Positions 3,555-30,626 of a stretch of DNA of 30,904 nucleotides are shown here, piece after piece; within the stretch, counting starts at the first letter, position 1, and each line of letters begins with the position of its first letter. The stretch is from positions 1 through 30,904 of the forward strand of contig JAGQMT010000001.1 of the NCBI GenBank assembly GCA_020428565.1, in the 5' to 3' direction. The DNA comes from Candidatus Saccharimonadota bacterium. GTDB taxonomy: Bacteria; Patescibacteriota; Saccharimonadia; Saccharimonadales; JACDBH01. The notes beneath the pieces were generated by a model. It was not told where the DNA came from, made no database searches, and saw nothing but the letters and a program-made list of their open reading frames with translations. Position numbers and translations under genes: made by a program.

Positions 3555-3646
3555 TGGCGGAGAGAGAGGGATTCGAACACCCTCGGAACCGTTGCCGGCT
3601 CACTTGTTTTCGAGACAAGCCAGTTCAACCACTCCTGCACCTCTCC
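3555..3646 (-). tRNA. tRNA-Ser(CGA), encoded CCA, 2-nt insertion in T arm
   Basis: GGAGAGG acceptor, anticodon arm CTTGT-CTCGAAA-ACAAG, long variable arm, T arm GAGGG-TGTTCGAAT-CCCTC, ends CCGCCA. 92 nt. Confidence 0.9.
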
Positions 3647-5185: not shown

Positions 5186-5211
5186 ACTCGGTATTTTAAA
5201 CCAAAGAGAAA

Positions 5212-5268
5212 CCCCAATTATCATTATCCGCTATACGGAACTCATTAGAGTATGAGTGATAATTGGGG
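5212..5268. terminator. Y-shaped (three-way) hairpin at the convergent end of the HAD gene and cassette A
   Basis: 12-bp stem CCCCAATTATCA/TGATAATTGGGG with two inner arms (TCCG/CGGA and ACTCAT/ATGAGT alternatives). Followed by a U-rich tract on the - strand. Confidence 0.55.
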
Positions 5269-5506
5269 GGTAGAGTGCCTTGATTGTCTGTCTATATGAC
5301 AGTATAGGTACAAGGCAGACCAGTGACGGTATTAGTATCTATGAGACACTTTGTGTATAAGCACGTACCGAAGCGCACTTCCCTGCTCGATGGACAGTCC
5401 ACAGAGCTTTGTTTCACCTCCAGGGAGAGGTTAGTTGGTTATCAGTTCCTTACTGCTAGGCGCATAGTTTGCGTAGTAGCGAGTCTATGCGAGACTCTTG
5501 GAGGCT

Positions 5507-6019
5507 TTAGCGACAGGCGAGCTCTCGCTCAACCCAGAAGTCATAGACTTCTGGGTTGTCGAGGCTCACTGCCTCGCGAGAGCGCTCGCCCGCGAGCGCT
5601 CTCGCCCTTACAAAGGCCTTGTAATATAGCCCTTCGTAAGGGCGGCCTCGCCTGTCGCGCGTGACGATAAGCGTCACGCGCCATGTTCCGTCCGCCATCT
5701 TGGTGGCGGCGATGAGGGTTCCCGAGGTGGCCGATGCCACCTCGATGTACCTCACTGGTGATTTCTCACCAATGAGGTACCACCCCCCTCCGACGTCCGC
5801 CTCCTCCACGAAGTGGAGGGTTTTTTTGTCATGGCCAGGGGCCATGACAAAAAAACGGCTCCCGAAGGAGTGGGTCGCCATGGCGACCTCCACTCCTTCA
5901 GGAGTCAAGCCGCTTGGGCAATGGGAAAACCCATGCCCAAGGGCCTTGGCAACCAGGTCCCAATCGTTCGTATAGAACACTTCGTCGAACATCATCTCCC
6001 CTTTTCGGGTCGTGTGCAT
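5507..6019 (-). CDS. Hypothetical protein with hairpin-tiled coding sequence (cassette A)
   Basis: 170-aa ORF. AAAGGGGAG lies just before the ATGs at 5995/5992, the likely start. GC-rich (35/60 G+C in 5521-5580 and in 5581-5640). No family recognised. Confidence 0.6.
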   Translation of the reverse strand: MHTTRKGEMMFDEVFYTNDWDLVAKALGHGFSHCPSGLTPEGVEVAMATHSFGSRFFVMAPGHDKKTLHFVEEADVGGGWYLIGEKSPVRYIEVASATSGTLIAATKMADGTWRVTLIVTRDRRGRPYEGLYYKAFVRARALAGERSREAVSLDNPEVYDFWVERELACR

Positions 6020-6287
6020 TTAGCATTGTTGCTAGGCTGCACGCCTCAAAGTCTCTAGTTTTAGAGCCCTTGAGCCGAAACTCAACTACATTGGCCATAG
6101 ACCAGCAATCGAGTTCCGAGCCCAAAAGCTCTAGTTACACAAAGTCAGAAAATGTTTGTATATCATAGGAACTAGCTCGAATGAGAGGCTCTTGTATTTG
6201 TACAAAGAATAGACTCCTTCCTACCAACAAACACCTTTACCGAACTAAGATAACCCAGCTTTTAATGTACGGAATCTTTGATTACTC

Positions 6288-6333
6288 AAAAATTCCCGGA
6301 GAGGCTGATGACATATCAGCCCAACCGGCAATT
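6288..6333 (-). terminator. Probable terminator of the helicase gene
   Basis: Long hairpin AATT.CCGG...GGCTGAT/ATCAGCC...CCGG.AATT followed by a T run, directly after the stop at 6338. Confidence 0.55.
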
Positions 6334-6337
6334 TTCG

Positions 6338-9300
6338 CTAACGATTACCATGATTTTTGGTAAATCTACTCTCTAGTGCAGATAGTGCCAGATCCAGATC
6401 ATCTACCGCCATAGGTATTTCGCCAAGACCATCATCAGGCGTAGGCTTATCAACAAGCTTAAGGGCATAATTGGTGTTACCATATTTTTCATACGACAAC
6501 AATACAATCACCCTTTCGCTATCTAGACGAATCTCATCTAGCAAATAAGCCTCCCGGCCATCGGCCGTATATTCTTGTGGACCCGACTCTGCCGCTACAT
6601 AGCTGTGACTGCCCAATCTGTCACGATAACCAGAATTCATTATCTGATCATACGACATCAACAAGCCAGTCGTGCTACGCAACTTCAGGTAAGGTCTCTC
6701 AACACTATCTACAGCAGCTTCGATTAGCTCATTGTCTAAATTATAGACGTCCTCTAGTAACTCATCTTCTTGACGTTCTGTTTCTTCGTCTCCGATTTGC
6801 CACGCACCCTCAATAAATTGATGGCTCTGTTCAATGTGACGAATTGCATATACTTGCTCCGATGTCAGTTGATCTGGCCAAGAAGCCACCTCGAAACTAC
6901 CAACATTTGGATCCCGTACAGATGAAGCAAAAGTTAAAGCGATTTCATCAGGATAAATCACATCCCAGATTTTATCAGAACCATCTCTATCAGCTTGCCT
7001 TAATTCTCCTGCAGAATTAACTACCCAAAAATATTGGTTGCCTGAGCCAGTTCCAATCCTTGTCCTACCTCCAAAATTTGTTAAGTAATCACCAGATTCT
7101 ATTAATTGCTGTTCGTACTCCCTCTTTAAACGCTCAGCCTGTCGTTCATGCAGTTCGGCTTCTATTGTCTCTACACCACTGTATACGTCTTCGATACGAC
7201 TATAGCTACGCTGGGCACCATCAGGCATATCAACCAAAAGTCTCAAGGCTACATTCGTAGGCAAAACAGACACATCACCATTAACAACTTGTTCCCAAGA
7301 TAAGGATATCTGAGCCTCTAAAGTTGAATCATAGGACCGAACATAATTAATCGGTACTTGCTCATCCATAACCATCATGACATCTGGATACTCACGCATC
7401 AATGCTTCGGTCCTTGTAATGTCATCTTCGTTGAATATATCATCCCAATTTAATCTGGGTGCATTGGCAAGTAGTGTGTGTAAATTAGTAATGTTATTTT
7501 CAGTCAATTGAGAAATTATCACGCTGTCAAGTCGACTCTGCAGATCTGTAGCAAACTGTGGATCAAACGTACGTGCCCAAGCTTGCAACTGATTTATCTC
7601 TTGTCTCCAATGTAGGTATTGTTGACGCAAAGGATGATTAGCACTTAGCAAAATATTCGCGAAATGTTCTTGAAGTTTATCAAAATCTGGAACAAGCATC
7701 TCTTCTCCAACAACCAAATTACCAAACAGCAAACTATGCTTATCACCAGCATGACCGTGTTCACTAAATACGATATCACCCACATCAGACAGACTAATAA
7801 GTTGTGGGGCAATCTCTGGCAACCAAGCTGGATCAACTTTACTAGCGCCCTGTAATAAGTTGAGAGTCTTAGGCCCTCGCTTGGTATTAATTTGAAGATC
7901 AAACGGAGTCGCCACCAATATATCACTACTACAAACACTACTACTTGATAGTTCACGATTTGAATCTTCTAAGGCAGAGTCATAGCTACCAGCATAGTGA
8001 TGAACCCACACCTGATCAATTAGTCCAGCGGCTATACACTTCAGTACAGCCTCTCTGTCTTCTGGCGTTAGTTCTTGAGTGCCGTCAGCACGCAACCCCA
8101 ACCGACTACGTATTTCCCTAATGCTCTGTTTTGCCGATGATACGTTCTTGCCCAAAATGTCATATTCTGACCATTTTTTATCAACACTACTCAATGCACG
8201 CAGTACATCACGCTGAGCCAAAAAGTCTGAATCTACTTCCTTTGTAAGTCGTTGCCAAGCAACATTATATTTACCGTTTTTGACAATTCCACCAGCCTGC
8301 TGAATACCAATACACTCCACCAAAGCTGATTGTACGTGCTTTGGATATTTGTGAGACTCAACAACCATACGTGCTAGATGAGTTTCTAGAGGCAACCGAT
8401 CCATCTTACGGCCTATATCAGTCAGTTCCTGATTTTCGGTCAAGGCACCCAATGTCCTAAGACGTAATTTAGCCTGTGCAATATCACCCCTATCAGGCTG
8501 ATGAAAGAAATCCATTGATTCCATGTCAAAATTACTAGCCGCCAATCGCAACATAGTTCGATCCAGTCGAGTGCGTAATATCTCGGGTGTTGGATGTGCT
8601 TCGCGCTCCTCAAACGCCACCGCAGTGCCAATGTTTTTCAAACTTGCCAACACATACTCTCCAGGCTTGGTCCTTCCAGCCCTACCAGCTCGTTGCAAAC
8701 AATCCGCTTGACTGATAGGTGCCATAAATAACCCCTCAACACCTTTGCGCTCTTCGGTACGCCTCTCTAATCCACTGTCTACCACAGCATCTATATCCTC
8801 TATAGTAATGCTAGTCTGAGCTACATTAGTAGCTAGTACAATCTTACCGCCACCGTGCTTCATGAACGCCTTGCGCTGTTCCTCTGCCGACAACTGACCG
8901 TGCAAAGGTATAATTGGTACACTAACACCACGGCTCCGGAGATCTCTCTCGACATCATCAATTTCTTTTTTGCCCGGCAAGAAGACAAGCGTATTTTTGC
9001 CTTGCTGTGCCATAGCAACGGTCTCGTCAACCAAATCCCCACCCTCCCGTCTAGCAACATCAAAGGTTCTACCCGGTACTTCTATAACAGGGGTTTGATT
9101 ACCAAAATACTGACTCAGAGCCTCGCTCTCTAGCGTTGCACTCATGGTCACTATTTTAATCTGCTCTTTTTTGGCCCATGCTAGTAGCACTTCAATATTC
9201 GTATTCCATTCATGTACTTCGTCTACTACTAGAACTTTCTCTCGCTCGACCCGATCTTCCCGACCTGCCAAAGACCGCACGACCTGTAATCCATCAGTAC

Positions 9301-9649
9301 AAAAAGTGATATCCGCATCCGCTGGACCAGATTTTTCTTTGGCCGTTCTATAGGCAACCGATATTGAATCGTCCGCTTCTTCTGCAACACGTTCGGCCAC
9401 CGTTCGAGCAGCCATAACTCGTGGCTGAGTCACTATCACTTCATAGCCAGCCTCAGCTAACATCTGTGGCACCTGCGTACTTTTGCCAGCGCCTGTTTCA
9501 GCAGTAATAACTGTTGCCTGATTAGATTCTACCGCATCAATAATTCGTTCTCGATAGGCCATAATTGGCAATTCTAGACCATCTAATATAACGTCCAGAT
9601 TATCTATCGGCTTATTATAATTATCCTGTTGCGTATTCCCTGTTGTCAT
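6338..9649 (-). CDS. HrpA/HrpB-like DExH-box (DEVH) ATP-dependent RNA helicase with a long unrecognised C-terminal region
   Basis: Motifs AETGAGKSTQVPQ, TQPR, FCTDG, DEVH, SAT, LVFLPG, PLHG, ATNVAQTSITI, QRAGRAGR, then an HA2-like LT.IGRKMDRLPL segment. 1103 aa. Confidence 0.9.
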   Translation of the reverse strand: MTTGNTQQDNYNKPIDNLDVILDGLELPIMAYRERIIDAVESNQATVITAETGAGKSTQVPQMLAEAGYEVIVTQPRVMAARTVAERVAEEADDSISVAYRTAKEKSGPADADITFCTDGLQVVRSLAGREDRVEREKVLVVDEVHEWNTNIEVLLAWAKKEQIKIVTMSATLESEALSQYFGNQTPVIEVPGRTFDVARREGGDLVDETVAMAQQGKNTLVFLPGKKEIDDVERDLRSRGVSVPIIPLHGQLSAEEQRKAFMKHGGGKIVLATNVAQTSITIEDIDAVVDSGLERRTEERKGVEGLFMAPISQADCLQRAGRAGRTKPGEYVLASLKNIGTAVAFEEREAHPTPEILRTRLDRTMLRLAASNFDMESMDFFHQPDRGDIAQAKLRLRTLGALTENQELTDIGRKMDRLPLETHLARMVVESHKYPKHVQSALVECIGIQQAGGIVKNGKYNVAWQRLTKEVDSDFLAQRDVLRALSSVDKKWSEYDILGKNVSSAKQSIREIRSRLGLRADGTQELTPEDREAVLKCIAAGLIDQVWVHHYAGSYDSALEDSNRELSSSSVCSSDILVATPFDLQINTKRGPKTLNLLQGASKVDPAWLPEIAPQLISLSDVGDIVFSEHGHAGDKHSLLFGNLVVGEEMLVPDFDKLQEHFANILLSANHPLRQQYLHWRQEINQLQAWARTFDPQFATDLQSRLDSVIISQLTENNITNLHTLLANAPRLNWDDIFNEDDITRTEALMREYPDVMMVMDEQVPINYVRSYDSTLEAQISLSWEQVVNGDVSVLPTNVALRLLVDMPDGAQRSYSRIEDVYSGVETIEAELHERQAERLKREYEQQLIESGDYLTNFGGRTRIGTGSGNQYFWVVNSAGELRQADRDGSDKIWDVIYPDEIALTFASSVRDPNVGSFEVASWPDQLTSEQVYAIRHIEQSHQFIEGAWQIGDEETERQEDELLEDVYNLDNELIEAAVDSVERPYLKLRSTTGLLMSYDQIMNSGYRDRLGSHSYVAAESGPQEYTADGREAYLLDEIRLDSERVIVLLSYEKYGNTNYALKLVDKPTPDDGLGEIPMAVDDLDLALSALESRFTKNHGNR

Positions 9650-9680
9650 AAATTTCTACTTATAATACCTGTTATTGATT

Positions 9681-9731
9681 ACTGTTTCGTCGTTTTCGAC
9701 TCATCAGAGGTGATACACATCACCTGACAGT
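9681..9731 (-). ncRNA. Type III hammerhead ribozyme
   Basis: Minus strand reads ACUGU-C / AGGUGAU-gugu-AUCACCU / CUGAUGA / GUCG-aaaa-CGAC / GAA-ACAGU: all conserved core bases, a G10.1-C11.1 pair, stems I-III and a GUC cleavage triplet. Predicted cut between 9726 and 9725. Confidence 0.93.
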
Positions 9732-10010
9732 TTGGGGTGTTGAATTTTGAGCAAAGCCCAAACACACCCCGTAGAGCACGGACATATATTAAAGAGGGGT
9801 CCGATTACCTCTAGTTCCTAACAAATTATTCAGTCCCTTATCCTTGGCTGATAGAATTATCAGTTCTTTCCTGAACCTAAAATTCATTTCACCAAGGCCG
9901 TAGACCTTACACCATAGTGTTAGCTATGGGCTTCCTCCTGCCTGTTAGCCAGACATGTCATATCACTATGACCTTTACCTCCGAGGGAGAGATAAGTTCA
10001 ACCGAGCTCA

Positions 10011-10355
10011 CTAGTTGCGTGCCAAAGCACAGCACCCAATGATTCGCCCGTCGGCATCCCTCACGGGTCCGCTCGTTGTGAGCAGATCGTGGGTGGGACG
10101 CCCCTGGGCGCGAGCCGCCGACACCGTGATGAAACTCACGATATAGGCAATTCCCTCGGTTGGCACGGGCAAGTCTTCGACTTCGCCAAACACCGTCTTG
10201 ACGACGGGTACGGCAAAACCATCGACCATCACCGCTCCGACCTGATGGTCAGATTGACGTGCCCTTGCCACTCCACCACTCGGAGCGATCGTCGCCACGA
10301 CATCATCGTCAGCAACAATCATCACCGCATGGGGAGTGAGGTTCACCAATTCCAT
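10011..10355 (-). CDS. Small NLTPH-motif protein (cassette B)
   Basis: SD GGAGG 5 nt upstream of ATG 10355. Sequence MELVNLTPH...PSG.VAR...V..LP.P....YIVS...VRDADGRIIGC..L matches a small conserved family often seen in phages and accessory regions. 38/60 G+C in 10021-10080. Confidence 0.8.
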   Translation of the reverse strand: MELVNLTPHAVMIVADDDVVATIAPSGGVARARQSDHQVGAVMVDGFAVPVVKTVFGEVEDLPVPTEGIAYIVSFITVSAARAQGRPTHDLLTTSGPVRDADGRIIGCCALARN

Positions 10356-10902
10356 TTTCACCTCCTTTTTAGTTGGCGAGCGTCTGTGGTTCCGGGACTT
10401 CCGGCAGACAGGAAAAGGTTGGAGTAAGTTACTCCACTAGGTGAATCAAGGGCGCATTGAACAAGACTACTAAGGCAGTCTACATATCATGGACACTAAT
10501 ATCAGCTAGTGGAATAACCCACTCTTTTACAGATATAAATTTAATGTACAGACCATCACATCCTAGCGATAGCCTTAGGTCCCGGTCAGTCGGTTCAGGA
10601 CTTAAGGCTGGTCAATTCGGTCAGCAAAGCCTCTCTATAAGCCTTACTAATTAACCACGCCTGTCTTTCTAAAATCATCGATACTCTGCCTATCCATCAC
10701 CAATAATCTACAATTATCAAGCTGGGAGGAGCAAGCTTTTAGCTTATGGCTCAACTGCCTAGATGTACGAGTGCTCTAGTTCTCGTATCAACAGCTCTAT
10801 CTAGAATCTATGTCTAGATCAATCTATTTAGATTCTTGGTAAGTAGGTCAAGTTGTCAATGTAATCGTTCTCAAAATGCCTCTCATTCATCGAACTGTAT
10901 AC

Positions 10903-10931
10903 ATCATACCGTAAATGTTTAAAAATGTCAA
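10903..10931 (-). promoter_or_regulatory. Sigma70-type promoter, divergent from the TrmB-like gene
   Basis: TTGACA (10931-10926), 17 bp, TATGAT (10908-10903). Confidence 0.6.
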
Positions 10932-10994
10932 TAATGTTATACGATATTCTCACTCAACAGGGGTAATTACATACTACTTTTTGTCAAAAGCTCG

Positions 10995-11023
10995 TTGACA
11001 AAATAATATTTTTTTGCTAATAT
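10995..11023 (+). promoter_or_regulatory. Promoter of a leaderless TrmB-like gene
   Basis: TTGACA, 17 bp, TGc-TAATAT, 7 nt, then ATG 11031. Confidence 0.75.
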
Positions 11024-11030
11024 AGTCAAT

Positions 11031-11768
11031 ATGACCCCCGAATTACTAGAAAACATCGGTCTCAACCATTCTCAAGCAAAGGCATATTTGGTATTAATCG
11101 AATCTGGTGCACTCACCCCTACCGAACTAGCCAACAAGATATTACAAAAACGCACTACTACCTATATGATAATGAATCAACTAGAAACACTAGGCTTGGT
11201 AGAAAAAACAACTAAGGGCACCAAAACCGCCTATGAAGCCACCAATCCCATCGCCCTAGAAAAACTATCTGAGTCACGACGCAAACAACTGCATCAAGCC
11301 GAAACCAGGGTTAAGCAAGCCATGCCCGCCCTACTCAGTTATTACTACTCCATTACAGAAAAACCAGGTATCAGGCTAGTTCAAGGCGTAGAAGGACTAA
11401 AGGACATTTATGCCGATACTTTGCGCGCTAAACAAGATATCTACTTCTTACGAACACCAGCGGATGTAGCAAAAATAGATCAAGAATATTTTGATAAATA
11501 CCGTCAAAAACGTGCTACGCTAGGCATAAAGACCTATGCCTTTACACCAGACACGGCACACAGCAGAGCTAGTTCCAATGACGACGAAAAGTTTCACATA
11601 CAGCGACAATGGATTAGCTCAGATATATATAGCGCGCCTGTAGAAATCGATGTCTACGGAGACAAGACCGCTCTACTTAGCTTTGGTGAAGATATAATTG
11701 GCGTTATCATACAAAGCCCAACTATCGCCGAGGCGATGAAACAACTCATCAGTAACCTCCCTAAGTAG
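11031..11768 (+). CDS. TrmB-family HTH transcriptional regulator
   Basis: LENIGLNHSQAKAYLVLIESGALTPTELANKILQKRTTTYMIMNQLETLGLV winged HTH, plus a C-terminal EIDVYGDKTALLSF effector/PLD-like domain. Confidence 0.85.
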   Translation: MTPELLENIGLNHSQAKAYLVLIESGALTPTELANKILQKRTTTYMIMNQLETLGLVEKTTKGTKTAYEATNPIALEKLSESRRKQLHQAETRVKQAMPALLSYYYSITEKPGIRLVQGVEGLKDIYADTLRAKQDIYFLRTPADVAKIDQEYFDKYRQKRATLGIKTYAFTPDTAHSRASSNDDEKFHIQRQWISSDIYSAPVEIDVYGDKTALLSFGEDIIGVIIQSPTIAEAMKQLISNLPK

Positions 11769-11780
11769 CTATCCCTGAGA

Positions 11781-12830
11781 TCATTCAAAATTAGACAAAT
11801 ACCGATGAATCTCTGCATCAGATTGTACAAACGAACCAACATAAGCTATAAATCTATCTATCTGGTCTTCAGATATGCCAGCAAATCTTTCTGTAAAATG
11901 GCTTCCCTCCGACCTGTGCCGAGCCAATATCTTACCAATCAAATCTCCTGGACGTGCAAAATCATCACCAACCCTAGGATCACGACCAATATCCAAGCTA
12001 AATCCCGTCGGAGACTTCGGGTCTTTATCTAGACGAATAGACAAATCTGCGGCATCAATAAATCTAGTATCGACCTGAACAGATTGATTATAACGATGAG
12101 CAGATTGTTCATTGCTGTGTGTAAATGCAAACTCAACTCTCTTTGCTGGTTCAACATCTACCCTCAATGTACCGCCATAATGATACTCATCAGGATAGAG
12201 GCCATCCTCAAGATCTGGCTCACTTTCAAATTCTGTCTCGTCGCCAGCGTACCTCCAAGTTTCATAACAACCAGCGTAAACTGCTTTTGTTCTACCATTA
12301 GTACGCATGGTGTAATCTGTCATACCAAACAAATAAGTACTCTGCTCGACAATACTTTCCTCTCCACTTACAAACCCCATAGATACAACTAATATGTTCA
12401 TAAGCGCGGTCAAATCACGCATAGCCACCACTGATTCACTCGTTGAATCGACATGCACATCAACATTCAACTCACTCCGTGCCGCCGATTCTATGATGTC
12501 ATAGGCTTCTCTCAGTGACCCACCTATCGCCATACCAATCTGAGGCTCAATACCAGCAAAACAATGCTCCAATATCGACACCGCTCGTCTCCCAGTCAAG
12601 CCTAGCTCATCTACTATACTGGACTCATGGTCAAGTCGTGCCCCTTCTCGATCAATAGCAGGATAAACAACCCTCGCCTTCTCCCGAGAAGTAAACATGT
12701 ACGGATATTTTTGCATCACACATGCAACCTCTACATCTGCGATTGCTGCCGAATCTTGCCCTAAATCCCGACTATCTGTGTCTGTGTTTTCTATAAGTGG
12801 AGCGATTTGCTCAATTACATTGCTACGCAT
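11781..12830 (-). CDS. Acidic hypothetical protein
   Basis: 349-aa ORF with its own consensus promoter. No family recognised. Confidence 0.7.
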   Translation of the reverse strand: MRSNVIEQIAPLIENTDTDSRDLGQDSAAIADVEVACVMQKYPYMFTSREKARVVYPAIDREGARLDHESSIVDELGLTGRRAVSILEHCFAGIEPQIGMAIGGSLREAYDIIESAARSELNVDVHVDSTSESVVAMRDLTALMNILVVSMGFVSGEESIVEQSTYLFGMTDYTMRTNGRTKAVYAGCYETWRYAGDETEFESEPDLEDGLYPDEYHYGGTLRVDVEPAKRVEFAFTHSNEQSAHRYNQSVQVDTRFIDAADLSIRLDKDPKSPTGFSLDIGRDPRVGDDFARPGDLIGKILARHRSEGSHFTERFAGISEDQIDRFIAYVGSFVQSDAEIHRYLSNFE

Positions 12831-12878
12831 TTTTGCATTCTTGAGTTATGGTTTTTTGTTTTAATTGCTTACATCTTT

Positions 12879-12907
12879 AATATAGCACAAAATTTGTTTA
12901 AAGTCAA
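12879..12907 (-). promoter_or_regulatory. Sigma70-type promoter
   Basis: TTGACT, 17 bp, TGc-TATATT. Confidence 0.65.
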
Positions 12908-12967
12908 TTCCGTGTGTTCCGTTGCACGTTTGCATCGACTAGCGATTGTACCCCAATGATTAGCGTC

Positions 12968-15541
12968 TCAGGCTGTAAAACTGTCTATTTCGGTGGTTAT
13001 CTGCTCTAGGCGTCGCTCGGCGTCAGTTAATTGTTGTTTAGTTTCGGCCACCAGAGCCTGCGGGGCATTATCAACGTATGATTTATTGCCTAATCGTGCA
13101 CGCAATCTCTCTACAGACAAGACTTCTTCTGTCTGCCTCTGCTCTAATTTGCCCAAATAGCCCTTAGCTACTTCTTCGGTTACAAAAACAGAGGCTACTT
13201 GATTGGTCTTGCTGAGTCTAATGCCAGAAATTTCACCAACAACTGTGGCTGACTCCAAATTAGCTAGTTTCTTGATCTGCTCTAGGTTAGACTCGATCAA
13301 ATCAGATGCCTGATATTGCAGAATCGGCTTACTGATACCTAGGTTCTTAGCTACTGCCCTCACCTCAGATACAATGCACTTAATATCCTCGAACGAGTCA
13401 GCCCTGTCGGCATCACACTTTAACACCTTAGGCCAATGTGCAACCGCCAACATTGAGTCATTCTCCCACTTGAGCGTCTGCCAAATAGTTTCAGTCGTAA
13501 AGGGCATAAACGGATGCGCTAGCTTGAGTATCACCTCTAACCCATATGCAAGTACCGAATAGTTTGGTTCTACCTTATTTGCCTCTAGGTACCAGCCAGC
13601 GAAATCATCCCAAATTGTGTGATAAACAGTTTCATAAGCCTCAGCAAACATGTATCCCTCGATATCGTTAGATACACTCTCGATAGCATGATTTAATCTA
13701 GTAACAATCCAATGATCGGCCAAAGACACGAACTTAGATGACTTACGAGCATGATAGTCGTCACCGATGACACCCTCGATATATCGAGCGATATTCCAGA
13801 CCTTGTTACAAAAATTACGACCAGCGTCCACTTTGCTTGGAGCAAAAGCTGCACTATAACCAGCACTTCGACCAGCTAACATACCCATCCGCAGAGCGTC
13901 TGAACCGTGTGTGGCCAAAATCTCGTTAGGATCAATGACATTACCAAGACTCTTACTCATCTTCTTGCCATCCTCAGCCCGAACCATACCATGCAAATAC
14001 ACATCTCGAAACGGAATCTCACCCGTTACATAGATACCGAGTACAATCATACGAGCCACCCATTGATAAAGAATATCTACACCTGTTTCCATGACAGAAT
14101 TTGGATAATACTTTGAAAAATCATCTCCTTTTGGATAACCAGTCGTGACAAAAGGCCATTGACCACTGGTGAACCAAGTGTCAAACACGTCTGGATCACG
14201 TCGATAAGTCTTGCCATCAACCTGTATAGTTTCTTGATCTACCCTATCGTCAAAAATCCAATCATCAATATCTTCGGTATTCTGAAAAGCTGGTATAGAA
14301 ACGCCCCATACAATTTGACGACTAATATTCCAATCCTTGACATTCTCTAGATAGGTAATCACCTGATCACGCTTGGCCGTGGGATAAAAACGAACCTTGT
14401 CAGCCCTCAGAGCTTCGATTGCCGGCTTTGCCAATGTCTTCATGTCGATAAACCACTGATCGCGCACCAACGGCTGAATAATCGTGCCACATTTATAACA
14501 ATGCCCTACCCTATGACTATGTTCCTCAATCTTCTCTAATAAACCTAGCTCTTCTAGCTCATCCACGATCCGTTTGCGACCTTCGTCTATTGTCAAATCA
14601 TGATACCTAGCGGGTGCTTCTAATCCAAGCAAACCATATTCGGTAATAACCTGTACCAGAGGTAAATCATGACGTCTAGCTACCTCAAAATCATTTGGAT
14701 CATGGGCAGGAGTAATCTTGACGGCGCCAGTCCCAAAACTCGTATCTACCATTTCGTCAGCCACTATAGAAATATGACGTTCGGTGAGTGGCAGAGCTAC
14801 TTGCCTGCCAATCAAATGTTTGAGTGATTCATCATCAGGATGGACAGCCACAGCCACATCACCCAGCATCGTCTCTGGTCTAGTTGTAGCAATAAGCACA
14901 AAATCTTCCGACAAATCATCACCCTCTGATACAAGCGGAAACTTGATAAAGTACATTTTACCCGGCTCATCTTTGTACTCTACCTCTATATCAGCAAAGG
15001 CCGTACCATGAAATGTACAAAAATTAACCAATCTCTCACCCCTGTAAACCAAACCATCGTTCCATAAACGCTTGAATGTTTCATAAGCTGTATTAACCAC
15101 CTTATCATCAAGAGTGAAAGCAAATTTGCTCCAGTCACAACTACTGCCCAGGGTGCGAAAAATATCATAAAACCCTTGTTTGTTATCCTGTACAAAGCTG
15201 TAGATGCCATCGTATAGCTCTTGTCTAGAGTAATCAAATCGACTCTTGCCTTCTTTGGCCAAGTGCTTTTCGTAAACAACCTGCGTCTCGAAACCAGCAT
15301 GATCAGCACCTGGTATCCAAGCCACGTCCCTGTCCTGCAGTCTGTAGTACCTAGCCAGAACGTCCTGTATGCTAAACATCAACGCATGGCCAATATGCAA
15401 GTTCGCATTAGCATTCGGCGGTGGCATAACCATCGAAAATGGCTCACCCTTACCCTTTGCTTCAAACGCCCCGCTCTGCTCCCATAATTGATAAATATCC
15501 TTCTCGTACTGACTTGGTTCATAGTTTTTTGGCAAATTCAT
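12968..15541 (-). CDS. valS: Valine--tRNA ligase
   Basis: PPPNANANLHIGH, TTRPETMLGD, FGTGAVKITPAHD, DWNISRQ, KMSKS and the C-terminal coiled-coil arm. Confidence 0.97.
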   Translation of the reverse strand: MNLPKNYEPSQYEKDIYQLWEQSGAFEAKGKGEPFSMVMPPPNANANLHIGHALMFSIQDVLARYYRLQDRDVAWIPGADHAGFETQVVYEKHLAKEGKSRFDYSRQELYDGIYSFVQDNKQGFYDIFRTLGSSCDWSKFAFTLDDKVVNTAYETFKRLWNDGLVYRGERLVNFCTFHGTAFADIEVEYKDEPGKMYFIKFPLVSEGDDLSEDFVLIATTRPETMLGDVAVAVHPDDESLKHLIGRQVALPLTERHISIVADEMVDTSFGTGAVKITPAHDPNDFEVARRHDLPLVQVITEYGLLGLEAPARYHDLTIDEGRKRIVDELEELGLLEKIEEHSHRVGHCYKCGTIIQPLVRDQWFIDMKTLAKPAIEALRADKVRFYPTAKRDQVITYLENVKDWNISRQIVWGVSIPAFQNTEDIDDWIFDDRVDQETIQVDGKTYRRDPDVFDTWFTSGQWPFVTTGYPKGDDFSKYYPNSVMETGVDILYQWVARMIVLGIYVTGEIPFRDVYLHGMVRAEDGKKMSKSLGNVIDPNEILATHGSDALRMGMLAGRSAGYSAAFAPSKVDAGRNFCNKVWNIARYIEGVIGDDYHARKSSKFVSLADHWIVTRLNHAIESVSNDIEGYMFAEAYETVYHTIWDDFAGWYLEANKVEPNYSVLAYGLEVILKLAHPFMPFTTETIWQTLKWENDSMLAVAHWPKVLKCDADRADSFEDIKCIVSEVRAVAKNLGISKPILQYQASDLIESNLEQIKKLANLESATVVGEISGIRLSKTNQVASVFVTEEVAKGYLGKLEQRQTEEVLSVERLRARLGNKSYVDNAPQALVAETKQQLTDAERRLEQITTEIDSFTA

Positions 15542-15615
15542 ATGTCCATAATTATACCACCTCTGTTATAACTACCAAAGTAAAATCTAGCACACATCAG
15601 TTGCAAATTAATTGA

Positions 15616-15861
15616 TTAACTATCACTTCTCTTTTGACGCAGTACTTCTACCCATATTTCTAGTCTAACACCCGGACAATTGCCGTTCATACAAGCATCA
15701 AATAACGACCCCAACATTAAACGAGTTGATACAGTACTGAGATTATCAGGGTCACTGACCTGCTCGACAAAACAATCCTCTATCACTAAATTCAGTGGCA
15801 TGACGCAACTTTCAGCGTCACTTGTACAGTTTCGATTAACTTCAAAGATATCGTATTCCAT
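15616..15861 (-). CDS. Small Cys-containing hypothetical protein
   Basis: 81-aa ORF with 5 Cys filling the tsaD-valS gap on the same strand. Confidence 0.4.
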   Translation of the reverse strand: MEYDIFEVNRNCTSDAESCVMPLNLVIEDCFVEQVSDPDNLSTVSTRLMLGSLFDACMNGNCPGVRLEIWVEVLRQKRSDS

Positions 15862-15924
15862 ACCAATACCCTAAATCAATAGCTTAAAATCCGCAATCTT
15901 TCATATGAAAGTAATAGCTAATAA

Positions 15925-17001
15925 TTACATGGAGAGGTTTGGCTGGATGGCTAGTTTATAGGGGTCATCAGCTGGACGACCTCTAGTAGCCGTAAAAGCG
16001 GCCAAAGTAGCAATCATCGCACCATTGTCGGTCATAAGCTTGGCGTCCTGATAATGCACCTCTATTGGCAACCTGTCAGCTAACTGACGTCTAAGTTCTG
16101 GACTAGAAGCCACACCGCCGCCAATCACCACCGAAGCAGGTGAGTACTCATCAAAGGCCATTACCGTCTTATCTACGACAGTTTCTATCGCCACACGCTG
16201 AAATACGGCAGATATATCGGCCTTCTGAGCTTCGGAGAGGCTGTCTGGGAGCATTTTGGAGGGAAAGGTGAAGTCTTTACCGCACATCTCCTGAGCATGC
16301 CGTAGAACGGCTGTCTTGAGCCCAGAGAACGAAAAGTCATATTTACCTTCCATACGAGCCTTTGGCAAATTAAATGCAAAAGCATCACCATCTAGGGCTT
16401 TTTTACTAACCGATGGACCACCAGGGTAGGGCAAGCCTGTAATTTTGGCCACTTTGTCAAAAGCTTCACCGACAGCATCATCCTGAGTACGACCTAGCAA
16501 GGTATAATCAAAATGGTCACGCCATAGCACCAGCTGACTATGTCCACCACTGACAATCAACCCAAGCATAGGAAATACCGGCTGAGAATTAGGCAATGTG
16601 TAATCTGCAAGCAGTGGAGTAGACAGGGAATTGATAAAATTCGCATAAATATGACCTTCGACGTGATTGACTCCGTACAGAGGCTTATTTTTATTGATAG
16701 CCAGTGTCCTAGCCGTCATAACACCAACCAACAACGAGCCGCCCAAGCCAGCGCCTTTTGTCACAGCAATAGCCCCTATATCATCCCAATCAACTGACTG
16801 CACAGCTTCGTCGATCACCGGCATAATAGACTCTATGTGGCTCCGAGCAGCAATCTCTGGCACCACTCCCCCAAACTGCGCATGCAAATCCATGCTGCTG
16901 GCCACAACATTAGTAATCAGCCGGCAATTATCCGCACCATCAATCTCCACGACAGAAGCGGCCGTTTCATCGCAACTTGACTCTATCCCAAGTACTTTCA
17001 T
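15925..17001 (-). CDS. tsaD: tRNA N6-adenosine threonylcarbamoyltransferase TsaD
   Basis: VLGIESSCDET, GGVVPEIAARSH, HVEGH, VSGGHS, DDAVGEAFDK, FSFSGLKT, TDNGAMIA. Likely start ATG 17001 (TATAAT 7 nt upstream), not GTG 17022. Confidence 0.97.
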   Translation of the reverse strand: MKVLGIESSCDETAASVVEIDGADNCRLITNVVASSMDLHAQFGGVVPEIAARSHIESIMPVIDEAVQSVDWDDIGAIAVTKGAGLGGSLLVGVMTARTLAINKNKPLYGVNHVEGHIYANFINSLSTPLLADYTLPNSQPVFPMLGLIVSGGHSQLVLWRDHFDYTLLGRTQDDAVGEAFDKVAKITGLPYPGGPSVSKKALDGDAFAFNLPKARMEGKYDFSFSGLKTAVLRHAQEMCGKDFTFPSKMLPDSLSEAQKADISAVFQRVAIETVVDKTVMAFDEYSPASVVIGGGVASSPELRRQLADRLPIEVHYQDAKLMTDNGAMIATLAAFTATRGRPADDPYKLAIQPNLSM

Positions 17002-17071
17002 CGCTACAATTATACCAGACACTTTAGATGACAGATAGGCAAGGGCAGTGGTCTAGCGTATAGTATGTAGT

Positions 17072-18382
17072 ATGAATCCACGAAAAATCGTCAAAAAACT
17101 CTTTCCCAAGCAAGTGTTCCAAAAGATAGAGCCCTATGGTCACATGGCAGAGGCTATGATCGCCCAAGCAAAGTATCATTTTCCAGCCAAAAACATCAAC
17201 GTAGTAGGTATAACTGGTACAGATGGTAAAACCACCACCTGCAGTCTTGTTGCATCGGTTCTGAGGGCTGGCGGTTATAGAGTTGGTGTGCTTACGACCG
17301 CCTACATTGATTATGGCGATGGGCGAGGAGAGCAAACCAACATCACCAACCTAACCACTGGCAACGCTTTTGCTCTCAACAGAATCATCTCTCAGATGAG
17401 AGCCAACCAAGTCGACTGGATAGTACTAGAAACCTCCAGCCATGCTCTCAATCAACACCGTATATGGGGTATACCTATCACCATTGCTATCATGACTAAT
17501 ATGAGCCAAGAACACTTAGATTATCACGGCACATTTACCAACTACCAACGTGCCAAAGAGATACTATTCAAGATGTGCAATCGCAACAAACACGGCTTAC
17601 AAACAGGTGTTGTCAATGCCGATGATGCCACTGCTGACAGCTTTGCCAAAAGAATCAAAAACTCAATCTCATATGGCATCAACAAGGGTGAGCTACGTGC
17701 CCAGGATCTCATAACCGACCTAAACGGCAACAGATTTAACGTGAAGACCGATAAACTCGACCATGCTTTTAGCACTCATCTTTTGGGTAGATTCAACACC
17801 TACAACGCACTATCCGCCATCGCCACAGGCAAAGTCTTAGGCCTTAGTCCAGAAGTTATACAGAGAGGACTTGATACCGTACAGAGCGTAGAAGGGCGCA
17901 TGATGCCACTAGATGTTGGTCAACCCTACAAAGTACTCATAGACTACGCCGTAACACCGGGGGCTTTAGAAAGCGTTCTTGGCACAATACGCGACATAGC
18001 AGGCAAGGGAAAGGTTCATATAGTCTTTGGGGCTACAGGTGATAGAGACAAGACCAAACGCCCCGCCATGGGAGAGGTTACCTCAAGACTAGCCGATAAA
18101 GTCTACCTTACAGATGACGAAACATACACAGAAGATGCCAGTAGTATCCAAAGCCAAGTATTATCTGGTGCATCAACCAAGAATAAACACAAAATTATCC
18201 AATTTGATGACCGCCAAGATGCCATTGCCAGTGCTATATCCAGCGCCAGAGCAGGGGATATAATCGTAATTTCTGGCATAGGTCATCAAACAACTCGAAA
18301 TATGGGTGGCAAGAAGATCAAATGGAGCGACTTAGAAATCACCAAACAACTCCTTCAAAAATCCCTTGAATCCAAAGCATAA
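17072..18382 (+). CDS. murE: UDP-N-acetylmuramoyl-tripeptide synthetase (MurE-type ligase)
   Basis: ITGTDGKTTT, LETSSHAL, TNMSQEHLDYHG, EGRM, DYA.TP.AL, FGATGDRD.TKRP.MG. Confidence 0.9.
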   Translation: MNPRKIVKKLFPKQVFQKIEPYGHMAEAMIAQAKYHFPAKNINVVGITGTDGKTTTCSLVASVLRAGGYRVGVLTTAYIDYGDGRGEQTNITNLTTGNAFALNRIISQMRANQVDWIVLETSSHALNQHRIWGIPITIAIMTNMSQEHLDYHGTFTNYQRAKEILFKMCNRNKHGLQTGVVNADDATADSFAKRIKNSISYGINKGELRAQDLITDLNGNRFNVKTDKLDHAFSTHLLGRFNTYNALSAIATGKVLGLSPEVIQRGLDTVQSVEGRMMPLDVGQPYKVLIDYAVTPGALESVLGTIRDIAGKGKVHIVFGATGDRDKTKRPAMGEVTSRLADKVYLTDDETYTEDASSIQSQVLSGASTKNKHKIIQFDDRQDAIASAISSARAGDIIVISGIGHQTTRNMGGKKIKWSDLEITKQLLQKSLESKA

Positions 18383-18439
18383 GGTATAAAGTATAATCAA
18401 TAACCTAATTATAAAATATAAATAAGTTAAATAGTTGCA

Positions 18440-18494
18440 AAAAGAAAATATGCGTTGTTTTATCTACTAGGAAATCTAGGATTAAACAACGCAT
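18440..18494 (-). terminator. Probable intrinsic terminator of cassette C
   Basis: 11-bp stem ATGCGTTGTTT (18450-18460)/AAACAACGCAT (18484-18494), followed on the - strand by ATTTTCTTTT. Confidence 0.6.
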
Positions 18495-18640
18495 CTTACG
18501 TCAATATTGGCTGAGACAGATCCAATCAAACATAGATATCTTCGCTGAAGGGGCACCTTTGTGTGCAATACATTGCGGTCGACGCCGTTGGCGACACACA
18601 AAAAAATACACAAAGGTAGCCCTCCCCCCAGCGATCTTGA

Positions 18641-19018
18641 CTACTTACGTCGTGATTGAGCGACGTTCTTGTAACGAGGCTTTTGCTTCGCTACGCCCAC
18701 ACCAGCAGGGTGCGCCTGACGCGAACGCTGACTCTCGCGATACAGAGTGGTCGCGAAATCGCATGCAGCCGCAATAACGTTGTAGCATTTCTCACTATCA
18801 CTCCCGACAGGAAAGCTGAAGTACACCTCCCCACAAACCATGACCTCCACGGTCACGCCAGTGCGTCGCTGACAACGAACAACTGCATCAGGAATGAATT
18901 CCTTCACCCCCAGGACACCTTTGTCCTCGATGGATACGTGCACACGATTGTGAAGGACATAGCCCACAATCGGGATCAGTCGCCCTTGAGCAACGATGTT
19001 TTTGTTAATATCTTGCAT
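18641..19018 (-). CDS. Hypothetical protein with hairpin-rich coding sequence (cassette C)
   Basis: SD AAGGAG (19028-19023) before ATG 19018 gives 125 aa, MQDINKNIVAQGRLIPIVGY... The longer track ORF runs through the promoter region. Confidence 0.6.
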   Translation of the reverse strand: MQDINKNIVAQGRLIPIVGYVLHNRVHVSIEDKGVLGVKEFIPDAVVRCQRRTGVTVEVMVCGEVYFSFPVGSDSEKCYNVIAAACDFATTLYRESQRSRQAHPAGVGVAKQKPRYKNVAQSRRK

Positions 19019-19132
19019 CACTCTCCTTAAGAGTGTTTGTCTGCCAATATGACCATAACATTCAATCATATTTATACTAAAAAAGCAACCTTTATCATCA
19101 AAATATAAATTATATGGTATAATACACATACA

Positions 19133-19738: not shown

Positions 19739-19754
19739 ATAAATCAAAAAACTC

Positions 19755-19792
19755 TTGACCAAAAATTAGCACTCACGTATCATGAGTGCTGA
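19755..19792 (+). promoter_or_regulatory. groESL promoter overlapped by a CIRCE (HrcA operator)
   Basis: TTGACC-17-TATCAT. TTAGCACTC-N9-GAGTGCTGA at 19766-19792, one mismatch to the CIRCE consensus. Confidence 0.9.
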
Positions 19793-19852
19793 AACATTGA
19801 TGTTATTTGCGAGAAATATCAATGTCCAGACATTAAAAGGAGGATTTATTTT

Positions 19853-30457: not shown

Positions 30458-30536
30458 TACTTTATAGTTTACGAAAAATTTACCCCTATTCATAGGTGTA
30501 AAATATACAAAACTTACGATATAATAATATTTGTCT

Positions 30537-30626
30537 GGAGAGGTGCAGGAGTGGTTGAACTGGCAGTCCTGGAAAGACTGTGAGCCGGCAACGGTTCCGA
30601 GGGTTCGAATCCCTCTCTCTCCGCCA
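30537..30626 (+). tRNA. tRNA-Ser(GGA), encoded CCA
   Basis: Anticodon arm CAGTC-CTGGAAA-GACTG, long variable arm, GAGGG-TTCGAAT-CCCTC. 90 nt. Confidence 0.96.

What the first reader, a model, noticed from the sequence alone, without database searches (positions are those of the whole stretch)
9681..9731. Canonical type III hammerhead ribozyme in an intergenic region of a CPR-like chromosome
Seen: CUGAUGA and GAAA cores, a 7-bp stem I with GUGU loop, a 4-bp stem II with AAAA loop, a 5-bp stem III and a GUC site. The U-containing loop I and A-rich loop II fit the known loop-loop tertiary contact. Established: cleavage gives a 2',3'-cyclic phosphate upstream and a 5'-OH downstream, which are RtcB-type ligation substrates. 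Bacterial hammerheads are known mainly from phage and mobile contexts. Here it would define the 3' end of cassette B at 9726.
Basis: partly seen in the sequence, partly recalled or inferred. Interest (0 to 1): 0.9.

Follow-up and report, generated by a model that had tools for sequence, protein, structure and literature searches.

The report
Hammerhead ribozyme ending a small-gene mRNA
A genuine self-cutting hammerhead RNA sits at the end of a small, phage-type, unusually tightly folded gene transcript in an ultra-small (CPR) bacterium. It most likely trims that message where a terminator would normally be, a known kind of arrangement seen here in a little-described lineage-wide variant.

Summary
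Minus strand 9731-9681 is a complete type III hammerhead with every core nucleotide, a GUC cut site (9726|9725) and stems of 7, 4 and 5 bp. Rfam scores it 44.1 bits, E 1e-6 for the window, below the 48.5-bit gathering score.

Thirty-three relatives in 19 of 61 genomes of the same order show strong covariation. An orthologous locus keeps the ribozyme with 5 of 7 stem I pairs and 2 of 4 stem II pairs compensated.

The ribozyme goes with the upstream gene, not the helicase. It follows a promoter, a roughly 540-nt leader, a 114-aa CARF/SAVED-associated phage-type gene, a 3' UTR and a stable hairpin.

Across about 100 related sites:
- The upstream gene is co-oriented in 74 of 99 sites.
- Its stop lies a median 90 nt away.
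- It is GC-enriched, and a stable hairpin precedes the ribozyme.
- The upstream 500 nt is abnormally structured (median z -4.2). The 824 nt before the cut here give z -9.9.

Metatranscriptome contigs cover only the promoter-to-ribozyme interval. RtcB was not found in 61 genomes, so the ligation idea has no support.

Gene-flanking bacterial hammerheads are known (Perreault 2011). This scan has noted the same Saccharibacteria family on other DNA before. Verdict: new variant of a known kind, moderate interest.

The parts
9681..9731 (-). Type III hammerhead ribozyme. Stem III 9731-9727 with 9685-9681; C17 at 9726; stem I 9725-9708 with loop GUGU; core CUGAUGA 9707-9701; stem II 9700-9689 with loop AAAA; GAAA 9688-9685.
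   Evidence: Covariation in relatives; compensatory changes in an ortholog.
9725..9726 (-). Predicted self-cleavage site, GUC|A. The upstream product would end at 9726 with a 2',3'-cyclic phosphate and the downstream product would start at 9725 with a 5'-OH.
   Evidence: Position follows from the Rfam alignment and established hammerhead chemistry. Cleavage itself was not tested.
9734..9770 (-). Stable hairpin (GGGGUGU...ACACCCC with an inner UUUGGG/CUCAAA stem) ending 2 nt before stem III.
   Evidence: MFE. The 80 nt upstream give z -2.95 here, and a median of -2.84 at 108 related sites against -0.9 and -0.7 in controls. The hairpin is conserved in ortholog L214.
9732..10010 (-). 3' UTR of the small gene. 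It includes 9933-9944, which pairs with 10405-10416 in the MFE fold and so encloses the coding region.
   Evidence: Nucleotide similarity to ortholog L214 runs through this stretch and stops at 9679.
10011..10355 (-). Small gene of 114 aa starting MELVNLTPH, with Shine-Dalgarno AGGAGG at 10366-10361 and 59% GC against 44% for the window. It belongs to a phage-type family that is sometimes fused to CARF or SAVED domains.
   Evidence: PHROG 30542, E 5e-21. PADLOC Unk_01, E 3.8e-20. Atlas neighbours are viral or SAVED fusions. Orthologs of 59-84% identity.
10356..10895 (-). Long 5' leader of about 540 nt. Its middle part is not conserved in orthologs.
   Evidence: RNA contigs cover 10631-10880. 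blastn against orthologs finds no similarity for 10878-10415. The start of the leader is inferred from the promoter match.
10903..10931 (-). Best sigma-70-like promoter match in the region: TTGACA, 17 nt, TATGAT (11 of 12).
   Evidence: RNA contigs end at 10866 and 10880, just downstream of it.
6338..9649 (-). HrpA/HrpB-like DEAH helicase gene of 1103 aa. Its ATG lies 31 nt after the ribozyme and 76 nt after the cut, with no clear Shine-Dalgarno sequence.
   Evidence: An ortholog follows the hammerhead in L214 (56% identity), but other genes follow it in L216-L219.
11031..11768 (+). Divergent TrmB-like regulator gene. It is conserved next to the small gene in orthologous loci.
5186..12967 (.). 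Accessory island of 7.8 kb. In same-genus genome G001 the flanking HAD-HTH and ValRS genes are separated by only about 11 bases.
   Evidence: tblastx synteny with L053. The helicase was not found in G001 or G002.

Best explanation
It is a functional self-cleaving type III hammerhead that forms the last module of a self-contained transcription unit on the minus strand. The unit runs: promoter (about 10931-10903), long leader, small phage-type gene (10355-10011), 3' UTR, stable hairpin (9770-9734), ribozyme (9731-9681).

Proposed mechanism, all inferred: as RNA polymerase passes, the ribozyme folds and cuts after C9726. The upstream message is released with a 2',3'-cyclic-phosphate end only 8 nt beyond a strong hairpin. 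It is an unusually tightly folded RNA that 3' exonucleases should attack poorly, so the ribozyme plus hairpin does the job of a terminator. The same cut uncouples the message from whatever lies downstream, here an HrpA/B-like helicase mRNA that would start with a 5'-OH and the ribozyme body.

Shown here: the motif, its conservation and covariation, its fixed position after small GC-rich genes, the hairpin, the excess RNA structure, and RNA-library contigs confined to the unit.

Inferred, not shown: cleavage in vivo, stabilisation of the message, and the fate of the downstream RNA.
For: 1. Motif. The core is complete and the Rfam E-value is 1e-6 for the window.
2. Selection on the fold. In 28 relatives 94% of cells are paired and 14 of 17 pairs carry compensatory changes. 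The covariation score is 0.79 against 0.23 in shuffles (0 of 500 reach it) and at most 0.13 in slid controls. A15.1-U16.1 and G10.1-C11.1 never vary.
3. Orthologous locus. L214/L215 (small protein 79% identical) keeps the ribozyme with 5 of 7 stem I pairs and 2 of 4 stem II pairs changed on both sides. W-L214 nucleotide similarity runs from 10414 to 9679, so it stops at the ribozyme's 3' edge.
4. The link is to the upstream gene. Orthologs L216-L219 (66%) keep a hammerhead after the small gene but carry a different downstream gene. Across about 100 sites the upstream neighbour is co-oriented in 74 of 99, with its stop a median 90 nt away (IQR 64-123). The downstream neighbour is co-oriented in only 62 of 104.
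5. A terminator in the same place. A distant homolog of the small gene in a GC-rich contig (L223) has a classical hairpin plus U-tract there and no hammerhead.
6. Hairpin. The 80 nt before the ribozyme give a median z of -2.84 against -0.9 and -0.7 in controls.
7. Structured cargo. z is -9.87 for 10549-9726 against -0.44 for an equal length of helicase coding sequence. The orthologs give -10.9 and -13.1. The 500 nt upstream of 82 sites give a median of -4.2 against -0.8, and the sense strand is more structured than the antisense.
8. RNA. All 7 contigs from 4 wastewater metatranscriptomes fall within 9767-10396 and 10631-10880. None lies on the helicase, the ribozyme body or the TrmB gene.
9. 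Precedent. Prophage hammerheads flank single, non-constant genes and were proposed to cut long transcripts into gene-length mRNAs (PMC3088659).
Against: - No cleavage assay was done and no read ends map to 9726/9725.
- The RNA evidence consists of unstranded assembled contigs at depth 2-8. The nearest one stops at 9767, 41 nt short of the cut, so termination at or before the hairpin cannot be excluded. The tool itself warns that DNA can be present in RNA libraries.
- The Rfam score is below the gathering threshold.
- Stabilisation by a cyclic-phosphate end plus hairpin is an inference from general RNA-decay knowledge and is untested in these organisms.
- The helicase ortholog also follows the ribozyme in L214, so a role for the downstream gene is not excluded.
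- About a quarter of related sites have no co-oriented upstream ORF in my crude ORF calling.
Confidence: 0.62

Rival explanations
1. The ribozyme serves the downstream gene. It creates the 5' end of the helicase mRNA (5'-OH plus a compact ribozyme fold, 76 nt before the ATG), which insulates, stabilises or enables translation of a gene that has no evident Shine-Dalgarno sequence.
For: - The ATG lies 31 nt after the motif.
- The helicase ortholog follows the hammerhead in L214 at a similar distance.
- The HHphage ribozyme of haloviruses HF1/HF2 lies 13 nt before a helicase start codon, and a transcript 5' end was mapped at its cut (PMC3088659).
- A quarter of co-oriented downstream genes at related sites start within 45 nt of the ribozyme.
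- Self-cleavage can drive translation initiation in some RNA viruses of eukaryotes (PMC13725137).
Against: - None of the other 32 hammerhead loci in relatives has this helicase nearby.
- L216-L219 keep the small gene plus hammerhead but with another downstream gene.
- The downstream neighbour is on the opposite strand at 42 of 104 sites.
- Nucleotide conservation stops at the ribozyme's 3' edge.
- No RNA contig lies on the helicase.
- This reading is compatible with the main explanation as a secondary effect.
Confidence: 0.2
2. The cut RNA is joined into a circle or spliced. The ends would be sealed by an RtcB-type ligase or by the ribozyme's own reverse reaction, giving a viroid-, retrozyme- or Obelisk-like circular, rod-shaped coding RNA.
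For: - Cleavage products have the right chemistry (established knowledge).
- The RNA is extremely structured.
- In ortholog L216 the MFE fold pairs the 5' leader with the 15 nt just before the ribozyme.
- Pairs of same-strand hammerheads 0.4-1.1 kb apart exist at other loci: L041, L124, L125 and L131.
Against: - There is only one hammerhead in this unit and in this genome, so the 5' end would be a primary triphosphate.
- RtcB was not found in this genome, and no match reached the family cut-off in the 60 relatives searched, while it was found in 10 of 14 control genomes.
- No junction was seen in the RNA contigs, though depth is low.
- Perreault et al. looked for circular or spliced products of bacterial hammerheads and found none.
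Confidence: 0.05
3. It is a relic or chance match with no present function.
For: - The score is below the Rfam gathering threshold.
- The island is accessory.
- One related copy (L222) has a weakened stem I.
Against: - The E-value is 1e-6 for the window.
- All core positions are intact.
- There are compensatory changes relative to an ortholog and across 28 relatives.
- The MFE fold is the hammerhead fold.
Confidence: 0.04

Closest known systems
Type III hammerhead ribozyme (Rfam RF00008, clan CL00010)
   Same: Same topology, all conserved core nucleotides, a GUC cleavage triplet, and the A15.1-U16.1 and G10.1-C11.1 pairs. Loop I and loop II are available for the usual tertiary contact.
   Different: It scores 44.1 bits, under the 48.5-bit gathering score, as do all 33 relatives found (0 of 61 genomes over the cut-off). 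Loop I is short (GUGU, UGUGUA in relatives) and loop II is AAAA.
Gene-flanking hammerheads of prophages and bacterial chromosomes (Perreault et al. 2011, PMC3088659)
   Same: It lies in a phage-like accessory region. It flanks a single small gene whose identity varies from locus to locus, here an anti-defence-like one, as with ardA in A. tumefaciens. Tandem arrays occur in relatives, for example L131. The proposed role is the same: cutting transcripts into gene-length mRNAs.
   Different: No integrase lies nearby. The host lineage is Patescibacteria (CPR), where the family is common: 18 of 60 genomes of the order and 12 of 150 across the phylum. The ribozyme holds a fixed place about 90 nt after the stop codon and directly behind a stable hairpin. 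The cargo RNA is GC-enriched and abnormally structured. I found none of these last points in the papers I could search.
HHphage of haloviruses HF1/HF2 (Perreault et al. 2011)
   Same: A hammerhead lies a few tens of nucleotides before the start codon of a helicase gene.
   Different: In HF1/HF2 it heads an early operon, and the mapped 5' end supports a 5' role. Here comparative data tie the ribozyme to the upstream gene.
Intrinsic (Rho-independent) terminator
   Same: It occupies the same place, after the stop codon. A stable hairpin would end up near the RNA's 3' end. A distant homolog of the cargo gene carries a classical terminator there (L223).
   Different: There is no U-tract. The 3' end would be made by RNA self-cleavage rather than by polymerase release, so polymerase may read on into the next gene.
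Retrozymes, viroid-like RNAs and Obelisks
   Same: A type III hammerhead next to a highly base-paired RNA of about 1 kb that, like Obelisks, encodes a small protein.
   Different: This one is DNA-encoded in a bacterial chromosome. It has a single ribozyme, no repeats, no RtcB and no circular junction. The cargo proteins are diverse, ordinary proteins.

Membership tests
Hammerhead ribozyme, type III | Three helices around the core, with the open end at stem III | tested here: met
   The Rfam alignment covers model positions 1-54. The MFE fold gives the same junction.
Hammerhead ribozyme, type III | Core C3 U4 G5 A6 N7 G8 A9, G12 A13 A14, the A15.1-U16.1 pair, and H17 at the cut | tested here: met
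   CUGAUGA at 9707-9701, GAAA at 9688-9685, U9727 pairing A9685, and C9726.
Hammerhead ribozyme, type III | Helices supported by covariation | tested here: met
   14 of 17 pairs carry compensatory changes in 28 relatives. Against an orthologous locus, 7 pairs are compensated.
Hammerhead ribozyme, type III | Loop I-loop II tertiary contact needed for fast cleavage | tested here: inconclusive
   The first U of loop I and the A residues of loop II are at least 90% conserved in relatives. No 3D test or activity test was possible.
Hammerhead ribozyme, type III | Score at or above Rfam's gathering threshold (48.5 bits) | tested here: not met
   44.1 bits. This is a curation cut-off, not a biochemical feature. 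The E-value is 1e-6 for the window.
Hammerhead ribozyme, type III | Site-specific self-cleavage giving a 2',3'-cyclic phosphate and a 5'-OH | not testable with these tools
   It needs in vitro transcription or end-specific RNA-seq. The RNA contigs stop 41 nt before the cut.
Prophage-type gene-flanking hammerheads (Perreault 2011) | Lies in a phage-like or accessory region | tested here: met
   The 7.8-kb island is absent from G001. The cargo gene matches PHROG 30542.
Prophage-type gene-flanking hammerheads (Perreault 2011) | [quoted passage not shown] | tested here: met
   The 76 upstream ORFs hit only 13 Pfam families, none shared by more than 2 ORFs. Tandem single-gene arrays occur, as in L131.
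Prophage-type gene-flanking hammerheads (Perreault 2011) | Close to an integrase | tested here: not met
   No integrase domain appears among the ORFs of the island and its flanks scanned with Pfam. An IS3 transposase sits beside one ortholog (L213).
Ribozyme-processed circular RNA (retrozyme, viroid-like, Obelisk) | Two cleavage sites or a repeat that delimits a unit-length RNA | tested here: not met
   There is a single hammerhead in the window and in the genome. No other ribozyme family was found at E up to 1.
Ribozyme-processed circular RNA (retrozyme, viroid-like, Obelisk) | An RNA ligase for 2',3'-cP and 5'-OH ends (RtcB) | tested here: not met
   PF01139 was not found in this genome. No match reached the family cut-off in any of the 61 genomes of the order; there was one weak sub-cut-off hit with an internal stop. 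Controls were positive in 10 of 14 genomes.
Ribozyme-processed circular RNA (retrozyme, viroid-like, Obelisk) | Circular junction in RNA data | tested here: inconclusive
   No joints appear in 4 metatranscriptomes, but depth is only 2-8 and the data are assembled contigs.

The most novel reading that the evidence does not exclude
The hairpin plus hammerhead is the 3' cap of a portable, self-contained expression cassette peculiar to CPR bacteria. The cassette would consist of its own promoter, a foreign GC-rich small gene, an RNA folded far beyond normal (z -10 to -13) whose leader and trailer pair around the coding region, and a ribozyme that trims the 3' end flush with that fold. The result would be nuclease-proof messages for accessory or anti-defence genes. 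This would give bacterial hammerheads a concrete, testable job and point to an unrecognised way of packaging horizontally acquired genes.
Probability: 0.3. Interest if true: 0.75.

Novelty: new variant of a known kind. Interest (0 to 1): 0.5.

Why it matters
What the hundreds of bacterial and phage hammerheads do has been open since 2011. This locus and its roughly 100 relatives offer a consistent, checkable answer: a ribozyme placed about 90 nt after the stop codon, directly behind a hairpin, ending an unusually structured small-gene message in place of a terminator.

The family is common in Patescibacteria, especially Saccharibacteria, yet falls under Rfam's threshold, so it goes unannotated in these genomes. 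Cultivated Saccharibacteria exist, and a Nanosynbacter MAG carries the variant (L140). The idea can therefore be tested with end-specific RNA-seq and reporter assays.

For this window, the result also corrects the reading that the ribozyme belongs to the helicase or feeds an RtcB ligation pathway.

Tried and rejected
- Rfam at gathering threshold found only a tRNA. The permissive mode was needed to see the hammerhead.
- No second ribozyme of any Rfam class turned up in the window at E up to 1. A CTGATGA...GAAA pattern hit at 6418-6438 lies inside the helicase gene and has no stems.
- RtcB: not found.
- A RAGATH-10 hit just under threshold lies upstream of one relative's hammerhead (L013). It did not recur in the 17 other loci searched, so I did not use it.
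- Viral homologs of the small gene (L209, L210) are followed by a terminator-like hairpin and tRNA-like sequence, with no hammerhead. So the gene and the ribozyme are not linked outside the CPR lineage.
- The cassette's DNA has no homolog in 60 relatives apart from the 24-nt ribozyme core.
- A duplex search for pairing between the last 60 nt before the cut and the upstream RNA did no better than shuffled tails for W, L214 or L216. I do not claim a terminal 5'-3' panhandle for this locus; only the internal 12-bp helix 10416-10405 with 9944-9933 appears in the MFE fold.
- G017 is an unpublished genome. It enters only the tally of 19 of 61 genomes and no alignment or other analysis.

Full report
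**Observation.** On the minus strand, 9731-9681 reads ACUGUC|AGGUGAU-GUGU-AUCACCU-CUGAUGA-GUCG-AAAA-CGAC-GAAA-CAGU. This is a textbook type III hammerhead:
- a 5-bp stem III that includes A15.1-U16.1;
- C17 at 9726;
- a 7-bp stem I with a GUGU loop;
- a 4-bp stem II, closed by G10.1-C11.1, with an AAAA loop;
- all invariant core nucleotides.

Rfam's Hammerhead_3 model aligns over its full length at 44.1 bits. E is 3e-8 in a local search, 1.1e-6 for the window and 5.9e-9 in the genome search. That is under the curated 48.5-bit threshold, which is why the default scan listed only a tRNA. It is the only such motif in the 665-kb, 68%-complete assembly. The free MFE fold of the surrounding 100 nt gives exactly this junction plus an adjacent hairpin, with z -3.2.

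**Is it under selection?** The same Rfam model finds 33 sites in 19 of 61 genomes of the same order (one of them, G017, is unpublished and enters this tally only). There are up to five sites per genome and none in 14 control genomes. A phylum-wide sample gives 12 of 150 genomes. An alignment of 28 of these sites (A1) was scored against the hammerhead structure:
- 94% of cells are paired;
- 14 of 17 pairs carry changes on both sides;
- the covariation score is 0.79, against 0.23 in shuffles (0 of 500 reach it) and at most 0.13 when partners are slid;
- the A15.1-U16.1 and G10.1-C11.1 pairs never vary.

The four copies with long stem II insertions were left out of that alignment.

The exact core variant occurs in 36 IMG/VR viral contigs with the same architecture. 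The window's GroEL is 74% identical to that of a Ca. Saccharimonadia genome and 48% to that of a Nomurabacteria genome.

**Surroundings in the window.** The ribozyme lies 31 nt before the ATG (9649) of an 1103-aa HrpA/HrpB-like DEAH helicase. It lies 279 nt after the stop of a 114-aa gene (10355-10011) that has a strong Shine-Dalgarno sequence and 59% GC against 44% for the window.

That small protein is real. It matches PHROG 30542 (E 5e-21) and PADLOC 'Unk_01, small protein sometimes fused to CARF' (E 3.8e-20). Its predicted fold recurs as a domain fused to SAVED. Upstream of it come a roughly 540-nt leader and the best sigma-70-like promoter match of the region (TTGACA-17-TATGAT, 10931-10903), then a divergent TrmB-like gene.

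Synteny with a same-genus genome shows that 5186-12967 (7.8 kb) is an accessory island. In G001 the flanking HAD-HTH and ValRS genes are separated by only about 11 bases, and the helicase was not found in G001 or G002.

**Which gene does the ribozyme belong to?** Three lines of evidence tie it to the upstream gene.

1. Context statistics over about 100 related sites (relatives plus named genomes):
   - the upstream neighbour is on the ribozyme's strand in 74 of 99 sites;
   - its stop is a median 90 nt away (IQR 64-123);
   - its median length is 154 aa;
   - its GC is 7.4 points above its locus, and higher in 92% of cases;
   - the downstream neighbour is co-oriented in only 62 of 104 sites.

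   These upstream ORFs are unrelated to one another: 76 ORFs hit 13 Pfam families, none shared by more than two.
2. Orthologous cassettes. Homologs of the small protein at 63-84% identity all sit next to a divergent TrmB gene.
   - In L214/L215 (79%) the 3' UTR, hairpin and hammerhead are conserved and a helicase ortholog (56%) follows. Against W, 5 of 7 stem I pairs and 2 of 4 stem II pairs are changed on both sides while the core is untouched. blastn similarity runs from 10414 to 9679 and stops at the ribozyme's 3' edge.
   - In L216-L219 (66%) a hammerhead with a long stem II follows the small gene, but the next gene is a different, 225-aa one.
   - In L213 an IS3 transposase sits right after the stop codon.
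   - In a distant homolog on a 57%-GC contig, a classical hairpin plus U-tract terminator occupies the same place and there is no hammerhead (L223). Viral homologs also lack it.
3. None of the other 32 hammerhead loci in relatives has this helicase nearby.

**A constant architecture.** Directly 5' of nearly every related ribozyme lies a stable hairpin. For the 80 nt upstream, median z is -2.84 and 66% of sites fall below -2. The figures are 22% and 16% for windows 380-460 nt upstream and 20-100 nt downstream (n = 108). In W the hairpin is 9770-9734, 2 nt from stem III, with z -2.95.

A sub-family shares a conserved basal stem (ACAGGCAGA ... UCUGCUUGUCAU) whose G-U pairs work only on the ribozyme strand.

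The RNA further upstream is also abnormally structured:
- W 10549-9726 has z -9.87, against -0.44 for an equal length of helicase coding sequence.
- The orthologs give -10.9 and -13.1.
- Over 82 sites the 500 nt before the ribozyme give a median z of -4.2 (38% below -5), against -0.8 for windows 1.6-2.1 kb upstream (only 8 shuffles each, so single values are rough).
- In 300-nt windows the sense strand is more structured than its reverse complement, -2.4 against -1.4.

In W's MFE fold a 12-bp helix (10416-10405 with 9944-9933) encloses the coding region. In L216 the leader pairs with the 15 nt just before the ribozyme. A direct duplex test did not beat shuffled controls, so I leave terminal end-pairing open for this locus.

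**RNA evidence.** Four wastewater metatranscriptomes hold pieces of the region. All seven contigs laid on 8000-11200 fall within 9767-10396 and 10631-10880, between the predicted promoter and the ribozyme. None lies on the helicase, the ribozyme body or the TrmB gene, and no joints were seen. This fits a discrete, relatively abundant RNA that ends near the ribozyme. The caveats are that the contigs are unstranded, depth is 2-8, and the nearest contig stops 41 nt short of the cut.

**Mechanism proposed.** The ribozyme cuts after C9726 as it is transcribed. The upstream message then ends in a 2',3'-cyclic phosphate 8 nt past a strong hairpin, on an RNA that is tightly folded throughout. The hairpin plus ribozyme therefore acts in place of a terminator and as a 3' protector, and it uncouples the cassette from downstream genes. 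Cleavage chemistry is established knowledge. Cleavage here, stabilisation and the fate of the 5'-OH helicase RNA are inferences.

**Rivals.**
- A 5' role for the helicase mRNA. It is supported by the HF1/HF2 precedent and by L214, and weakened by L216-L219, the orientation statistics and the conservation boundary.
- Circularisation. It is weakened by the single ribozyme and by the failure to find RtcB in 61 genomes, while 10 of 14 controls have it.
- A relic. It is weakened by the covariation.

**Comparison with what is known.** Perreault et al. 2011 (PMC3088659) described hundreds of bacterial hammerheads. Many were in prophages and flanked single genes of varying identity, among them the anti-restriction gene ardA. 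The authors proposed processing into gene-length mRNAs, found no circular or spliced products, and noted a hammerhead 13 nt before a halovirus helicase gene. This locus is therefore a known kind.

I did not find the following points in the searchable literature:
- the prevalence in Patescibacteria and Saccharibacteria;
- the fixed placement after the stop codon, behind a hairpin;
- the GC-rich, hyper-structured cargo.

Earlier notes of this same scan describe the same Saccharibacteria family at other loci: hammerheads ending small GC-rich genes, hairpin-flanked, as portable cassettes. I read them after my own analyses. They agree with my results but are not independent evidence.

**Verdict.** It is a new variant of a known kind, of moderate interest.

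Noticed in passing
window 9726-10549 (-); L214:2300-3100; L216:4100-4900: The small-gene RNA is extraordinarily structured: z -9.9, -10.9 and -13.1 against dinucleotide shuffles, compared with -0.4 for an equal length of helicase coding sequence. The property is conserved among orthologs with 66-79% protein identity. A milder form is general upstream of related hammerheads (median z -4.2 over 500 nt).
   Followed up: partly
window 5300-6050: A second GC-rich island (up to 60% GC) lies just downstream of the helicase gene. It has overlapping ORFs on both strands (5323-5664 +, 5507-6019 -, 5661-5975 +), no Pfam, PHROG, PADLOC or NCBIfam match, and no ribozyme hit. It was not analysed further.
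   Followed up: no
window 10011-10355 (-) and 11031-11768 (+); L213, L214, L216-L222: The small CARF/SAVED-associated protein and a divergent TrmB-like regulator form a conserved pair separated by 570-760 nt. The middle of that spacer is not conserved, yet it carries the deepest RNA contigs (10631-10880).
   Followed up: partly
window 5186-12967: This 7.8-kb accessory island is absent from same-genus genome G001. Other gaps between conserved housekeeping genes (15541-15925, 17022-17072, 18193-19838) also differ in content among G000, G001 and G002. G002 carries a different hammerhead in the gap between ValRS and the 365-aa gene.
   Followed up: partly
L035, L039, L045, L021 (second site), L038, L163, L096, L122, L165 and others, just 5' of the ribozyme: A sub-family of the pre-ribozyme hairpins shares a conserved basal stem, ACAGGCAGA ... 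UCUGCUUGUCAU. Its G-U pairs make it specific to the ribozyme strand. The sequence conservation suggests a protein-binding or other sequence-specific role.
   Followed up: partly
L131:4100-5700; L124:2800-4130; L125; L041: Tandem arrays occur in Paceibacteria and other MAGs: two or three single small genes (67-221 aa), each followed by its own hammerhead, 440-1070 nt apart.
   Followed up: partly
L013:2018-2097 (-) = G044:C64: A RAGATH-10 match just under threshold (40.2 against 41.2 bits) lies about 460 nt upstream of a hammerhead, in the leader of its small gene. It did not recur in the 17 other loci searched.
   Followed up: no
L213:4466-5565: An IS3-family transposase (HTH_Tnp_1 plus rve) is inserted 45 nt after the stop codon of a 79%-identical ortholog of the small gene, where the 3' UTR and hammerhead lie in W and L214.
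   Followed up: no
window 3558-3646 (-) and 30537-30623 (+): Two tRNA genes. The first has a long variable arm. The second is seen only in the permissive Rfam scan and lies within the span of an ORF listed at 29552-30649 on the other strand.
   Followed up: no
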